Below, one piece after another: positions 1,031-6,430 of a stretch of 43,213 nt of DNA. Source of the stretch: Candidatus Buchananbacteria bacterium RIFCSPHIGHO2_02_FULL_39_17 (GTDB taxonomy: Bacteria; Patescibacteriota; Patescibacteriia; Buchananbacterales; UBA6539); the NCBI GenBank assembly GCA_001817425.1, contig MHII01000010.1:1-43213 (forward strand), written 5' to 3'. Positions within the stretch are counted from its first letter, which is position 1. Every line of letters begins with the position of its first letter. The notes beneath the pieces are model-generated. The model was not told the origin of the DNA. It saw only the letters and a list, made by a program, of their open reading frames with translations, and did no database searches. The position numbers and the translations under genes were made by a program.

Positions 1031-1130
1031 CCCCGACGCTACGGTCGGGATCCCCGACTTTCCCGACGTTGAGTCGGGATGCCGACTTAACACCGGCACC
1101 CTCAAAGCTAATAAATTTAGTAGTCGGGAT
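1031..1130. repeat. cluster of CCCGAC...GTCGGGA palindromic repeats
   Basis: several cccgac/gtcggga arms immediately upstream of the start codon at 1023. Confidence 0.7.
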
Positions 1131-5083: not shown

Positions 5084-5193
5084 AAGTTCTCCTTCGCTTC
5101 GCTCAGTCAAATTCAAAATTTAAAAATCAAAATTCAAAATGACTGGTTAAATAATAGTTAATTATTAAGTGTTACTAGTTAATTGTTCTTTAG

Positions 5194-5301
5194 TGGAGCC
5201 AGGGAGAGGATTTGTCCCGGTCGCCTTAGGCGACCGAGGATCCCGACTTCTTAATTATTTTAATAAATCAGTGCGTCGGGGAACCGGGAACCTACAGTTT
5301 A
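5194..5301 (-). pseudogene. 3' part of a tRNA-Thr-like gene with a palindromic insertion in the T loop
   Basis: tggagccagggagaggatttg [insert ~5215-5280] gaaccgggaacctacagttta; 5' half absent. Confidence 0.7.
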
Positions 5302-5362
5302 TCCCGATTTTATAAAAATTTTACTGGAGCCGGAGGTCGGATTCGGACCGACGACTTATTTA

Positions 5363-5467
5363 CCCCGCACCATTTGCCAACAAGCCAGGAGAGGGATTCG
5401 AACCCACGACCTACTGTTTACAAAACAGTTGCTCTACCGCTGAGCTATCCTGGCAAATGGTGCGGGG
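5363..5467. mobile_element. miniature element with 17-bp perfect inverted repeats enclosing tRNA-Thr(TGT)
   Basis: ccccgcaccatttgcca (5363-5379) / tggcaaatggtgcgggg (5451-5467); mobility is inferred. Confidence 0.6.
5383..5454 (-). tRNA. tRNA-Thr(TGT), intact, CCA not encoded
   Basis: GCCAGGA acceptor, ACTGT-TTTGTAA-ACAGT anticodon arm, GGTTCGAATCC T arm. Confidence 0.92.
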
Positions 5468-5610
5468 CTGGCGCAAAACAGTTACTCTACCACTGAGTTA
5501 CTCCGGCTTACAGTTTCTCACTATACTCTTGAATCATTGAGAATCCCGATTCTGGCCTAAATTCAATTCGATGGTTAATTGTCAATAGTTAAATGTTAAT
5601 TATTAAAAGT

Positions 5611-5692
5611 TGGGCCGGGAGGGATTCGAACCCCCGTAGGCAAAGCCAGCTGATTTACAGTCAGCCCTCGTTGACCGCTTGAGTACCGACCC
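5611..5692 (-). tRNA. tRNA-Tyr(GTA)
   Basis: GCTGA-CTGTAAA-TCAGC anticodon arm, long variable arm, GGTTCGAATCC. Confidence 0.95.
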
Positions 5693-5726
5693 AAGTAAAC
5701 AACTATTAACTAATAACAATTGACAG

Positions 5727-6080
5727 TTAACCTTGTCTTAACTTTTTACTAAAGCCGCCTAATTGTTTAGCAATCTCTTCACATTCCAACATCATTTCAT
5801 CAAAATTCTTTCTATTAATTAAATCGGCAGAATGCATTACGTCCAGACAAGCGACAACTTCACTAGCGGAACCAAGCGACAACTGAATGAAACGAAAAAA
5901 TTCTTTATCGGATTGCCGAGCTGATCCTTCTACGATATTCAGGACTATTGACAGAGTGGCGCGCCTAAGTTGTTCTTTCAAGCTATAAACTCTCAAGTCT
6001 TGAGTCTGGTGTAAAACTAACTTATAGAAATCCCGGGCTTTAATATAGACTGGGAAGTCAAGAAAGCGAAAAGTTTCCGT
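5727..6080 (-). CDS. four helix bundle protein (23S rRNA IVP / bAvd-like family); the expected start codon reads ACG
   Basis: QLRRATLSIVLNIVEGSAR...FIQLSLGSASEV signature; frame open upstream of the ORF-track start through FRFLDFPVY to ACG at 6080-6078, with in-frame stops just beyond. Confidence 0.85.
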   Translation of the reverse strand, partial: TETFRFLDFPVYIKARDFYKLVLHQTQDLRVYSLKEQLRRATLSIVLNIVEGSARQSDKEFFRFIQLSLGSASEVVACLDVMHSADLINRKNFDEMMLECEEIAKQLGGFSKKLRQG

Positions 6081-6149: not shown

Positions 6150-6430
6150 TGGAGCCCAAGCGCGGAATTGAACCGCGGACCTACTCCTTCATGTATACCT
6201 CTATTTCGTCTTCTTTAAACTTATAAGAGGATTAGACTGTATCTTAGACATATTTCACTAAAAATGAAACTTAGTCTCCCTTGTCAGTCGTTCGAGCGCG
6301 CTGTGGCACTACGGTCTGATCCATATTAGATTAGGATTTTAACCGTTATTCGGGATTCATTATCGAGTTTCCAAGACAATGGGCATCTTTAAATACCATG
6401 GAGTTGCTCTACCAGCTGAGCTACTTGGGC
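6150..6430 (-). tRNA. intron-containing tRNA-Thr(GGT); exons 6430-6395 (36 nt) and 6189-6150 (40 nt)
   Basis: joined exons give a 76-nt cloverleaf: GCCCAAG acceptor, ACTCC-ATGGTAA-GGAGT anticodon arm, GGTTCAATTCC, CCA end. Confidence 0.92.
6190..6394 (-). ncRNA. group I intron, 205 nt, no ORF
   Basis: 5' exon ends in U, intron ends in G; P1 GGU|AU pairs with AUGCC giving the U.G wobble; P7 GACUG (6289-6285) pairs with the S element AAGAUACAGUC (6245-6235); P3 UCCC/GGGA, P8 AGAC/GUCU, P9 CCUCU/AGAGG. Confidence 0.88.

What the first reader, a model, noticed from the sequence alone, without database searches (positions are those of the whole stretch)
5325..5507. Russian-doll tRNA: an intact tRNA-Thr(UGU) carried inside an inverted-repeat element that interrupts another tRNA-Thr
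Seen: the outer gene has a matched acceptor stem (GCCGGAG/CTCCGGC), D arm, T arm and CCA, but a damaged anticodon arm containing a ~105-nt insert. The insert has 17-bp perfect IRs (CCCCGCACCATTTGCCA) and encloses a complete, sequence-distinct tRNA-Thr(UGU) (acceptor GCCAGGA). The first four tRNA bases are part of one IR, so IR pairing competes with acceptor-stem formation. Inference: (a) a miniature element that destroys its target tRNA and supplies a replacement, making itself indispensable; (b) repeat-mediated capture or duplication of a tRNA; or (c) a folding switch controlling tRNA maturation. Integrative elements normally restore tRNAs with a 3' fragment; a whole tRNA inside a ~100-bp IR element is not something I recognise.
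Basis: partly seen in the sequence, partly recalled or inferred. Interest (0 to 1): 0.82.

Follow-up and report, generated by a model that had tools for sequence, protein, structure and literature searches.

The report
Live tRNA nested in dead tRNA
A working threonine tRNA gene, clamped by a 17-base palindrome, sits inside the broken remains of an older copy of the same gene; many such nests occur in this small-genome bacterium and its relatives, which suggests a selfish cassette that overwrites tRNA genes and replaces them.

Summary
All features lie on the minus strand. tRNA-Thr(UGU) 5454-5383 scores 73 bits and is the only Thr(UGU) gene found in the genome. A perfect 17-bp inverted repeat flanks it. 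The whole unit sits in the anticodon loop of a second Thr-like gene (5507-5474 and 5362-5325).

The outer gene is dead. Neither tRNA finder calls it, and cutting the insert out at six places restores nothing. A metagenome contig does hold the same outer gene uninterrupted, and that form is called tRNA-Thr(UGU).

A third, older layer lies at 5300-5194.

The nest is not unique. 12 of 41 tRNAs in this genome have relics of themselves within 500 nt, all co-oriented. The same architecture occurs at a paralogous Thr(CGU) locus, in sister genera, and in other classes of the phylum. The arm core CCCCGCAC..GTGCGGGG is shared across these.

Elsewhere the same kinds of arms bracket small GIY-YIG nuclease ORFs, alone or together with a tRNA.

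Best reading: a palindrome-bounded cassette replaced the resident tRNA gene in situ. This resembles fungal mitochondrial endonuclease ORFs that carry a replacement gene end. The mover is inferred, not shown. No splicing enzymes were found, and I found no published description.

The parts
5474..5507 (-). Outer (dead) tRNA-Thr gene, 5' part: acceptor strand GCCGGAG, D arm, 5' strand of the anticodon stem and loop bases TTTTG
   Evidence: Sequence. 82% identical over 34 nt to the inner 5' half (D1). Coordinates. Not called as a tRNA.
5468..5473 (-). Filler CGCCAG between the outer 5' part and the palindrome. Possibly half of a small hairpin element of the TGCGCC(A/G)GAGGCGCA kind seen in T and D loops of relatives.
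   Evidence: Sequence. The small hairpins were read in relatives' loci. The link between the two is inference.
5451..5467 (-). 5' arm of the type A palindrome, CCCCGCACCATTTGCCA. Its last 4 nt are bases 1-4 of the inner tRNA.
   Evidence: I1. The core CCCCGCAC..GTGCGGGG is found at 22 loci in this genome, in 15 of 31 genomes of the order and in 16 of 401 genomes across the phylum.
5383..5454 (-). Inner, live tRNA-Thr(UGU), 72 nt, no encoded CCA. The only Thr(UGU) gene found in the genome.
   Evidence: ARAGORN. Rfam 73.1 bits.
5363..5382 (-). Trailer TGT (5382-5380) and the 3' arm of the type A palindrome, TGGCAAATGGTGCGGGG (5379-5363)
5325..5362 (-). Outer (dead) tRNA-Thr gene, 3' part: TAAAT (the anticodon-stem strand lacks CAG), AAGTC, T arm GTCGG-TCCGAAT-CCGAC, acceptor strand CTCCGGC, T, CCA
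   Evidence: (D2). The missing CAG shows by comparison with the uninterrupted form in run X2. Exact contigs of three runs bridge this part into the inner tRNA (records 2, 10, 19).
5301..5324 (-). Spacer GTAAAATTTTTATAAA plus ATCGGGAT, the 3' end of a type B element. G011 has the same junction after its live Thr(UGU).
   Evidence: (L020).
5194..5300 (-). Oldest layer: the 3' part of a still older tRNA-Thr from position 37 on (AAACTGTAGGT..GGTTC, 5300-5281). Its T loop is split by a 67-nt type B element (5280-5214). It ends in AAATCCTCTCCCTGGCTCCA (5213-5194).
   Evidence: (D3). Type B copies 96-98% identical to part of it lie elsewhere in the genome. In contigs of runs X2 and X3 the inner tRNA with type-B-like arm letters is joined directly to this piece (joint 5310-5381).
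5508..5550 (-). Upstream relic: ATCGGGAT..AAACTGTAA, a degenerate direct repeat of the junction at 5308-5293
   Evidence: (D5, D6). Its meaning is inferred.

Best explanation
The locus is a layered record of in-situ tRNA gene replacement.

The outer gene was once an ordinary tRNA-Thr(UGU) gene. A compact cassette entered its anticodon loop. The cassette is a complete tRNA-Thr(UGU) of another allele lineage, clamped by a type A palindrome (core CCCCGCAC..GTGCGGGG). This killed the resident gene and supplied a working one in the same event, so the event was tolerated. The old gene then lost 3 nt of its anticodon stem.

An earlier round of the same kind left the 3' relic at 5300-5194.

The inner gene is probably transcribed through the old 5' half and cut out by the usual tRNA-end enzymes. 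The clamp would keep it folding apart from its look-alike flanks (inferred).

The mover is probably a homing-like or structure-specific cut made in trans by one of the genome's small UPF0213/SLX1-like GIY-YIG nucleases. Sibling cassettes bracket genes for these nucleases, alone or with a tRNA (inferred, not shown).

Shown: anatomy, a dead outer gene, the uninterrupted outer form in a contig from a related organism, recurrence across the phylum, the nuclease association.
Inferred: direction and agent of movement, and the role of the clamp.
For: 1. The outer gene is dead.
- It is not called by ARAGORN or Rfam.
- Removing the insert at 6 cut choices gives no tRNA.

2. An empty-site form exists.
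- One X2 contig joins 5474 to 5358 with 7 letters between.
- Rebuilt in a script, that form is called tRNA-Thr(tgt).
- Eight of the relatives' tRNA-cluster loci printed show a plain Thr(UGU)+CCA gene with no nest or relic: L002, L003, L004, L005, L008, L011, L012, L014.

3. The outer gene is the old resident, the inner a different lineage.
- G010's outer gene has the acceptor GCCGAGA/TCTCGGC of G003's live gene.
- The inner 3' half is closest to the G010 inner gene (35/38) and to L005 (34/38). The outer is closest to L004.

4. The same inner cassette sits in different settings.
- Type A arms in G000.
- Type B arms in G010.
- Joined directly to the oldest layer in X2/X3 contigs.

5. Only one Thr(UGU) gene is found in the genome.

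6. The pattern recurs.
- Paralogous Thr(CGU) locus C21 and its ortholog in G001.
- 12 of 41 tRNAs have self-relics within 500 nt on the same strand, 0 of 41 on the other strand.
- 15 of 41 tRNAs are clamped (IR score >= 10) against 49 of 2000 random windows.
- Type-A-clamped tRNAs with outer halves were seen in 6 of 8 loci taken from 6 genomes, including other classes.

7. Orthologous outer genes decay differently. C21 has acceptor mismatches; G001 has its T arm replaced.

8. Nuclease link.
- GIY-YIG ORFs lie inside the Gln nest (C28) and the G010 Tyr nest.
- 4 of 12 GIY-YIG loci lie within 150 nt of a tRNA, P = 1.5e-5.
- A 20-bp type A IR tightly brackets an intact 86-aa GIY-YIG ORF at C36.
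- In 34 relatives' loci searched there were 10 GIY-YIG ORFs in 7 loci, 9 of them within about 100 nt of a tRNA.
Against: - The window's insert holds no ORF, so any nuclease must act in trans. No cleavage, target site or mobility was tested.
- No target-site duplication is seen, and type A copies differ in their interiors, so this is not a classical MITE.
- G010's outer gene becomes a valid tRNA-Thr(tgt) when its insert is cut out exactly. That fits a recent insertion, but also a spliced intron.
- In the Gly(GCC) nest the outer 5' 56 nt are 98% identical to the inner gene. That looks like local duplication or gene conversion rather than arrival from elsewhere.
- The arm core is conserved across classes. 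It may serve a host function, such as RNA processing, and not be a mobile-element end.
- 8 of 12 GIY-YIG loci are not next to a called tRNA.
- 50 pattern matches in viral contigs held no tRNA, so no vector was found.
- There are no RNA data. The empty-site form rests on one contig at depth 5 in one run.
- The 5' junction (5455-5510) was not among the bridging contigs listed.
Confidence: 0.6

Rival explanations
1. Local duplication and decay without a mobile cassette. Palindromic hairpins in or beside the tRNA gene provoke breaks, fold-back or slipped repair. This duplicates the gene in place, and one copy then decays and collects hairpin repeats. No element moves and no nuclease is aimed at tRNA genes.
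For: - Gly(GCC) nest: the outer 5' part is 98% identical over 56 nt to the inner gene.
- Leu(CAA): the outer 3' part is 96% identical over 47 nt.
- Strict co-orientation, 12 to 0.
- Inserts sit at hairpin tips: loops of tRNAs and of earlier palindromes (read).
- No ORF in the window's insert.
Against: - The window's inner and outer genes are only 82% and 74% alike, and they group with different alleles of the family.
- The same inner cassette lies in different arms and different outer genes in G000, G010 and the X2/X3 contigs.
- The arm core is conserved across classes.
- The arms bracket a nuclease ORF.
Confidence: 0.2
2. A new kind of tRNA intron. The palindromic inserts are removed from the RNA, so the outer tRNAs are also functional. 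The inner tRNA is an intron-borne extra gene released during processing.
For: - G010's outer gene is a valid tRNA-Thr(tgt) after exact removal of its insert.
- Outer genes often keep perfect acceptor stems and an encoded CCA.
- Inserts sit exactly in the D, anticodon and T loops.
- The arm core is conserved across the phylum.
Against: - The window's outer gene gives no tRNA at any of 6 cuts and lacks 3 nt of its anticodon stem.
- No splicing endonuclease was found (best E 0.69) and no RtcB, in a genome 96% complete.
- No Rfam intron or ribozyme match.
- Every interrupted copy I inspected has a live copy inside or beside it. I did not find any tRNA present only in interrupted form.
- Orthologous outer genes decay in different ways.
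Confidence: 0.08
3. A folding switch. The 17-bp clamp competes with the inner acceptor stem and so gates maturation of the only tRNA-Thr(UGU). The outer halves are a scaffold for that control. This could hold on top of the replacement history.
For: - The MFE and centroid folds pair GCCA of the tRNA into a 19-bp clamp and leave the inner acceptor stem unformed. The 189-nt fold has -82 kcal/mol, z = -5.9; the 111-nt fold has z = -6.4.
- The 4-nt overlap is kept in G010's 19-bp repeat.
Against: - This is only an energy prediction, and such predictions are unreliable for tRNAs.
- Other clamps abut the acceptor stem without overlapping it: Ala(UGC) and Thr(CGU).
- No signal or partner is known.
- Outer scaffolds are not conserved between sister species.
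Confidence: 0.08
4. Assembly chimera of two tandem or allelic tRNA-Thr genes.
For: - The genome is a 38-contig metagenome assembly.
- Contigs end at such nests, for example Lys(UUU) at the end of C21.
- The 5' junction was not shown bridged.
Against: - Exact contigs from runs of three studies bridge 5233-5412 and 5326-5410.
- The same architecture occurs in independent genomes G001, G010, G014 and others and at a second locus of this genome.
Confidence: 0.01

Closest known systems
Mobile endonuclease ORFs of fungal mitochondria that carry a replacement gene end (Allomyces atp6; Glomus atp6, atp9, cox2, nad3). PMC3630166, passages read.
   Same: The insert interrupts an essential gene and brings a foreign copy of the displaced part. 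The native part stays behind as a relic. Close relatives have the uninterrupted gene. The endonucleases are LAGLIDADG or GIY-YIG.
   Different: There only the 3' end is replaced and the nuclease ORF is part of the insert. Here a whole tRNA gene is nested, both halves of the old gene remain, a palindrome bounds the insert, the window's copy has no ORF, and the host is a bacterial chromosome.
Phage T4 SegB, a free-standing GIY-YIG homing endonuclease in the tRNA gene cluster. PMC2988022, passages; PMC13096335, abstract and section 10.
   Same: GIY-YIG nuclease genes sit beside tRNA genes. They drive preferential inheritance or amplification of segments that hold whole tRNA genes. Co-localisation with tRNAs is statistically strong.
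   Different: SegB is a phage protein and gives tandem amplification or co-conversion, not nesting. The ORFs here are 84-96 aa, UPF0213-like, in a cellular genome. None lies in the window's insert.
Integrative elements (prophages, islands) that insert into tRNA genes and restore the 3' part. Recalled knowledge; no paper read.
   Same: The tRNA gene is the target, often at the anticodon or T loop. Left-over tRNA pieces remain as co-oriented repeats.
   Different: Those are kilobase elements with an integrase, and they duplicate only the 3' fragment. Here a 105-nt insert holds a whole gene, the 5' half is also duplicated, and the ORF list shows no ORF inside the insert other than a 40-aa frame on the opposite strand that runs across the tRNA.
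Archaeal tRNA introns, including multiple, transposing introns and split tRNAs. PMC4033280, passages; PMC10714607, passage citing Fujishima 2010.
   Same: Short structured inserts in D, anticodon and T loops, several per gene, behaving like mobile elements.
   Different: Those are cut at bulge-helix-bulge motifs by EndA and religated, and the gene has no spare copy. Here no EndA or RtcB was found, the outer gene cannot be restored, and a spare copy is present in every nest inspected.
Intervening sequences of 23S rRNA with 23S_rRNA_IVP ORFs (Pfam PF05635)
   Same: Hairpin-like inserts at loop tips of structural RNA genes. A truncated IVP ORF lies in this tRNA cluster, and full ones lie between Tyr and Thr(UGU) in two relatives.
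   Different: rRNA tolerates being cut into pieces (recalled). A tRNA cut in its anticodon loop does not, which may be why a replacement copy travels along.
Small dispersed repeats of cyanobacteria
   Same: Very small palindromic repeats that insert into each other and give nested structures.
   Different: As far as I recall, they are not reported to carry or replace tRNA genes.

Membership tests
tRNA (Rfam RF00005): inner gene | Cloverleaf covariance score above the gathering cut-off, with a readable anticodon | tested here: met
   73.1 bits against 29. ARAGORN calls Thr(tgt).
tRNA (Rfam RF00005): outer gene | Cloverleaf score above the cut-off, as it stands or after removal of the insert | tested here: not met
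   No hit at E <= 10 or E <= 1. ARAGORN finds nothing at 6 cut choices. One relaxed call gave an undefined 4-base anticodon.
Enzyme-spliced (archaeal-type) tRNA intron | Splicing endonuclease (PF01974) and ligase RtcB (PF01139) encoded in the genome | tested here: not met
   Best PF01974 match E 0.69, below the cut-off. No RtcB match. The genome is 96% complete, so absence is not proven.
Enzyme-spliced (archaeal-type) tRNA intron | Bulge-helix-bulge motif at the exon-intron borders | tested here: inconclusive
   By eye and by folding, the insert's ends pair with each other in one long helix. No 3-4-3 motif was looked for with a dedicated tool.
Group I intron in a tRNA gene | Catalytic core (about 200 nt or more) recognised by a model; excision restores the tRNA | tested here: not met
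   The insert is 105-111 nt. No Rfam match at E <= 1. Excision restores nothing.
Integrase-type island at a tRNA gene | Direct repeat of the tRNA 3' part only, with an integrase gene inside the element | tested here: not met
   The 5' half is duplicated as well (D1). The ORF list shows only a 40-aa frame on the opposite strand across the insert.
MITE / terminal-inverted-repeat transposon | Terminal inverted repeats | tested here: met
   17-nt perfect arms. The core is shared by 22 loci.
MITE / terminal-inverted-repeat transposon | Target-site duplication, and copies with a shared interior | tested here: not met
   The flanks CGCCAG and TAAAT are not a duplication. The interiors of type A copies differ: tRNAs, a roughly 113-nt module, a nuclease ORF, 5' regions of pilin-like genes.
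Homing-endonuclease cassette with a carried replacement of the target gene (fungal mobile-ORF type) | The insert carries a replacement for what it disrupts; the native part is left as a relic; relatives have the empty site | tested here: met
   A whole live tRNA lies inside and dead halves outside. Empty-site form in run X2 and plain genes in relatives.
Homing-endonuclease cassette with a carried replacement of the target gene (fungal mobile-ORF type) | Endonuclease gene within the insert | tested here: not met
   None in the window's insert. Present in sibling nests: the C28 Gln and G010 Tyr nests, and a weak GIY-YIG fragment beside the cut Lys(UUU) at the end of C21.
Homing-endonuclease cassette with a carried replacement of the target gene (fungal mobile-ORF type) | The nuclease cuts the empty site and not the occupied or replacement gene | not testable with these tools
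   Needs protein and substrates.

The most novel reading that the evidence does not exclude
A phylum-wide family of selfish tRNA-replacement cassettes. Palindrome-clamped tRNA genes, sometimes with their own small GIY-YIG nuclease gene, home into a loop of the resident tRNA gene of the same identity. They kill it and take over its job.

This would be a third way for selfish DNA to live inside an essential gene, beside self-splicing (introns, inteins) and 3'-end restoration (integrases). Repeated rounds leave Russian-doll layers that record the history of each tRNA locus.
Probability: 0.4. Interest if true: 0.88.

Novelty: new variant of a known kind. Interest (0 to 1): 0.76.

Why it matters
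[quoted passage not shown] Here about a third of the tRNA genes of one genome are clamped or nested, and the pattern reaches other classes of the phylum.

If the replacement-cassette reading holds:
- It adds a new persistence strategy for selfish DNA in essential genes.
- It gives the widespread small UPF0213-type GIY-YIG proteins a candidate job.
- It explains why assemblies of such genomes break at tRNA genes and why tRNA sets look incomplete.
- It provides layered relics from which gene-turnover rates and horizontal tRNA flow could be read.

The conserved CCCCGCAC..GTGCGGGG clamp is an unexplained signal worth study in its own right. It also occurs around a conserved module of about 113 nt and at the start of pilin-like genes.

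Tried and rejected
- tmRNA or another known RNA for the 5300-5194 piece: rejected. The genome's tmRNA is at C23:91065-91453, and Rfam gave only tRNAs.
- Literature: seven searches found no description of a tRNA gene nested in a tRNA gene, or of palindrome-clamped tRNA cassettes. Supplementary files were not opened. Those of PMC13096335 (segB neighbourhoods) might hold related cases.
- Viral contigs: 50 matches to the arm pattern, 0 with a tRNA inside, many in GC-rich contigs. No evidence for a phage vector.
I have no RNA evidence of any kind.
- Contig laying: bins 5508-5555 had no or almost no cover, and no listed piece bridges 5455-5510. This is no evidence either way. No strand-changing joint was listed, so nothing speaks for inversion between the arms.
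- Hunt for tRNAs that exist only in interrupted form: anticodon-arm and D-arm scans were noisy. They found only Lys(UUU) cut by the end of contig C21. Phe(GAA), Gly(UCC), Pro(UGG) and Ile(GAU) were not found at all, probably because of assembly gaps.
- Promoter and terminator scan: 4 promoter-like sites against 5.0 expected. Uninformative.
- An ARAGORN 'tRNA-Phe with a 2175-nt intron' on C8 looked spurious on reading.
- Counts of nests 'seen by eye' are my reading of printed sequence, not a scored test.
Full report
**What is there**

On the minus strand the window holds a tRNA cluster: Thr(GGU), Tyr, Thr(UGU), rpmG, Trp. Within 5507-5325 the order is as follows.
- 5507-5474: the 5' part of a Thr-like tRNA. 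It has acceptor strand GCCGGAG, a D arm, the stem strand ACTGT and loop bases TTTTG.
- 5473-5468: the filler CGCCAG.
- 5467-5451: the arm CCCCGCACCATTTGCCA.
- 5454-5383: a complete tRNA-Thr(UGU), overlapping the arm by 4 nt.
- 5382-5380: TGT.
- 5379-5363: the arm TGGCAAATGGTGCGGGG.
- 5362-5325: TAAAT, AAGTC, a T arm, CTCCGGC, T and CCA.

The inner gene scores 73.1 bits against a cut-off of 29. The arms are 17 nt and perfectly complementary. The 17-mer has 2 matches against 0.03 expected by chance. The outer halves are 82% (34 nt) and 74% (31 nt) identical to the inner halves.

**Is the outer gene alive?**

No.
- ARAGORN and the Rfam tRNA model do not call it, in the window or in the whole-genome search.
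- I removed the insert in a script at six different cut points. ARAGORN found no tRNA. Only one relaxed run gave an undefined call.
- The reason is visible. The 3' strand of the anticodon stem is missing three bases.

**An empty site exists**

Logan contigs of four groundwater and soil DNA runs from four studies were laid on 5100-5800.
- Exact contigs bridge 5233-5412 (X1, X2) and 5326-5410 (X3). These run from the oldest layer through the outer 3' part and the arm into the inner tRNA. That side is therefore not an assembly chimera.
- One X2 contig (depth 5.1, 32 letters on the shorter side) joins 5474 to 5358 with seven letters between. On the minus strand this is the outer gene without the insert and with a full anticodon arm. 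Rebuilt in a script, ARAGORN calls it tRNA-Thr(tgt).
- A related organism in that sample therefore carries the uninterrupted outer-type gene.

Caveats: this rests on one low-depth contig. The runs may include the sample the window was assembled from. The 5' junction was not among the listed bridging pieces.

**Comparison with relatives**

I fetched 19 loci from relatives and printed the Tyr-Thr(UGU)-Trp interval for 17 of them.
- Plain Thr(UGU)+CCA gene with no nest or relic: L002, L003, L004, L005, L008, L011, L012, L014.
- Nests or relics: L007, L010, L016, L017, L018, L020.

G010 (L010) has the ortholog of the window's nest.
- Its outer gene has acceptor GCCGAGA/TCTCGGC plus CCA, the same acceptor as the live plain gene of G003.
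- Its insert has a different ('type B') element and a 19-bp repeat.
- Its inner gene has a 3' half that is 35/38 identical to the window's inner gene.
- Its outer gene becomes a valid tRNA-Thr(tgt) when the insert is removed exactly.

So outer genes are former resident genes, and the inner gene belongs to another allele lineage. The same inner cassette, including its proximal repeat that overlaps GCCA, sits in different arms and different outer genes in G000 and G010. It also appears in X2/X3 contigs joined directly to the piece at 5300.

**A third layer**

5300-5194 is the 3' part of a still older tRNA-Thr from position 37 on. Its T loop is split by a 67-nt type B element, and it ends in ..CCCTGGCTCCA (D3, 78).

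It is preceded by ATCGGGAT, the 3' end of a type B element. G011 has the same 'CCA, spacer, ATCGGGAT, AAAC' junction after its live gene. The locus therefore records at least two rounds of replacement.

**Not a one-off**

*In this genome*
- C21:64786-64960 has the same architecture around tRNA-Thr(CGU), and 68% identity over about 300 nt to the window locus. Its ortholog in the sister species G001 has it too. The two outer genes are damaged differently: acceptor mismatches in one, the T arm replaced by a hairpin in the other. Relics are expected to behave this way. Constrained RNAs are not.
- Reading the sequence shows three nested Ala(UGC), three Leu(CAG), and nested Val(UAC), Pro(CGG), Gly(GCC), Leu(CAA), Gln(CUG), Arg(UCU) and Lys(UUU).
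- By blastn-short (E <= 0.001), 12 of 41 tRNAs have pieces of themselves within 500 nt on the same strand, and 0 of 41 on the opposite strand.
- 15 of 41 tRNAs are flanked by an inverted repeat scoring 10 or more, against 49 of 2000 random windows. At a score of 12 or more the figures are 10 of 41 against 9 of 2000.

*In other genomes*
- The arm core CCCCGCAC..GTGCGGGG occurs at 22 loci of this genome.
- With a gap of 72-100 nt between the arm cores it occurs in 15 of 31 genomes of the order and in 16 of 401 genomes sampled across the phylum. The reversed control pattern matched in none.
- I fetched eight loci where such arms clamp a tRNA, from six genomes including other classes. In six of them I could read outer halves of the same tRNA identity.
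- In the nests I read, the inserts lie in D, anticodon or T loops, or in the loops of earlier palindromes.

**Splicing?**

The genome is 96% complete. It has no match to the tRNA splicing endonuclease above the cut-off (best E 0.69) and no RtcB. Rfam finds no intron or ribozyme family in these loci. Every interrupted copy I inspected has a live copy inside or beside it. I found no tRNA that exists only in interrupted form, although several expected tRNAs are missing altogether and contigs end at nests. I therefore rate a new intron class as unlikely (0.08) but not excluded, because G010's outer gene is restorable.

**A candidate mover**

- In the Gln(CUG) nest, a 13-bp repeat encloses a GIY-YIG ORF plus the inner tRNA. 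The whole unit lies in the D loop of the outer Gln gene (Pfam E 1.7e-12).
- G010's Tyr nest holds two GIY-YIG ORFs (E 3e-15 and 6e-16).
- G000 has 12 GIY-YIG loci. Four lie within 150 nt of a called tRNA (expected 0.16; P = 1.5e-5). A fifth, a weak fragment, lies beside the truncated Lys(UUU).
- At C36:791-1088 a perfect 20-bp type A repeat tightly brackets an intact 86-aa GIY-YIG ORF.
- In 34 loci from relatives, 10 GIY-YIG ORFs were found in 7 loci. All 7 are tRNA-cluster loci, and 9 of the 10 ORFs lie within about 100 nt of a tRNA.
- The proteins resemble UPF0213 proteins (1zg2, E 1.9e-7) and, weakly, the structure-specific nuclease SLX1 (E 0.004).

This links the arms, small nucleases and tRNA genes. 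But the window's own insert has no ORF, and nothing shows what these proteins cut.

**How it most likely works**

*Shown*
- A live tRNA lies in a palindromic clamp inside a dead gene of the same identity.
- There is an empty site in a relative.
- The pattern recurs, always co-oriented.
- Nuclease genes sit in sibling cassettes.

*Inferred*
- A cut in a loop-coding part of the resident gene, or at a hairpin tip, was repaired by copying in a cassette that carries its own tRNA. Loss and replacement then happen in one step. Only insertions that bring a working, co-oriented, co-transcribed tRNA survive.
- No promoter-like site stands between Tyr and the nest, but the scan was uninformative.
- The clamp may keep the inner tRNA folding apart from its look-alike flanks, or mark it for processing.
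- The MFE fold uses tRNA bases 1-4 in a 19-bp clamp and leaves the inner acceptor stem unformed. A maturation switch is therefore conceivable but untested.

**Compared with what is known**

- The logic is closest to fungal mitochondrial mobile ORFs, which insert into atp6, atp9, cox2 or nad3, bring a foreign C-terminal part and leave the native one as a relic (PMC3630166, passages).
- It also resembles T4 SegB, a free-standing GIY-YIG homing endonuclease in the phage tRNA cluster that promotes inheritance and amplification of tRNA-containing segments (PMC2988022, passages; PMC13096335, abstract and section 10).
- It differs from both. A whole gene is nested inside its predecessor. A conserved palindrome bounds the insert. 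The hosts are free-standing bacterial chromosomes. Many copies lack an ORF.
- It fails the tests for archaeal-type introns, group I introns, integrase islands and classical MITEs (see the membership table).
- I found no paper describing it.

**The organism**

Calling it CPR/Patescibacteria-like is my inference from the 1.14-Mb genome and the groundwater and soil runs.

**Verdict**

- The case is a new variant of a known selfish-element logic.
- The phenomenon is much broader than one locus.
- Confidence in 'dead outer gene, live inner gene, arrived by insertion of a palindrome-bounded cassette' is about 0.6. Confidence that GIY-YIG nucleases drive it is lower, about 0.35-0.4.

Noticed in passing
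window 6150-6430 (-): tRNA-Thr(GGU) is interrupted after position 37 by a 205-nt insert (ARAGORN with introns allowed). The insert is 85% conserved, with paired changes, in G021 of another family. It is absent from G010 and most relatives. It looks group-I-like to me (recalled motifs), but Rfam gave no match at E <= 1.
   Followed up: partly
window 5727-5996 (-), frame to 6053: A truncated 23S_rRNA_IVP ORF (PF05635, E 7e-23) lies between tRNA-Thr(GGU) and tRNA-Tyr. Full copies of the family lie between Tyr and Thr(UGU) in G003 and G014. The genome has 12 such loci, and only this one is next to a tRNA.
   Followed up: partly
G000 C12:40349-41561, C23:1627-1753, C29:3166-3295 and others (outside the window): Type A palindromes of 111-135 bp also enclose the 5' region of pilin-like genes. 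The 3' arm codes the end of the leader peptide (..K-G-A-G | F-T-L..) and the 5' arm lies about 100 nt upstream (read). This could be a regulatory hairpin or an invertible segment. Not examined.
   Followed up: no
G000 C3:16844-16957, C13:7503-7617, C25:11979-12094, C38:14321-14434, and many relatives: A conserved module of about 113 nt (..AAGCTCGCGA..GCGCG(A/G)AGTCGCCTxCGGCT..) is the commonest content of type A arms across the order. The one copy scanned, with other type A, B and C loci, gave no Rfam match at E <= 0.1. Possibly an undescribed small RNA.
   Followed up: partly
window 1032-1053 (+) and about 14 further loci of G000: Type B elements ((T)CCCGACG-loop-GTCGGGATCC-hairpin-CGGGAC) also occur far from any tRNA. 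Copies are 96-98% identical to each other, so this looks like a recently active small repeat family.
   Followed up: partly
G000 C34:1740-1840 (+) and C18:6040-6172 (-): Two odd tRNA-like sequences. One scores 27.6 bits (partial) with an unusual D and anticodon region. The other has a 34-nt insert in its T loop.
   Followed up: no
window 5154-5183 and 5571-5600, also after Thr(GGU): AT-rich spacers built on TTAAC-like words (..AATTAACATTTAACTATTAAC..) recur after the tRNA units of the cluster and in relatives (D4).
   Followed up: no
G000 contig ends (C21:72320-72373, C7:78, C3:133, C29:318): Several contigs end at or next to tRNA genes or nests. Phe(GAA), Gly(UCC), Pro(UGG) and Ile(GAU) were not found. 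The nests probably break short-read assemblies.
   Followed up: partly
L007, L011, L013, L015, L018, L019 and window 5352-5336: Live tRNA-Thr(UGU) genes of several relatives, and the window's outer gene, have TCCGAAT in the T loop, that is C at position 55 where U is near-universal.
   Followed up: no
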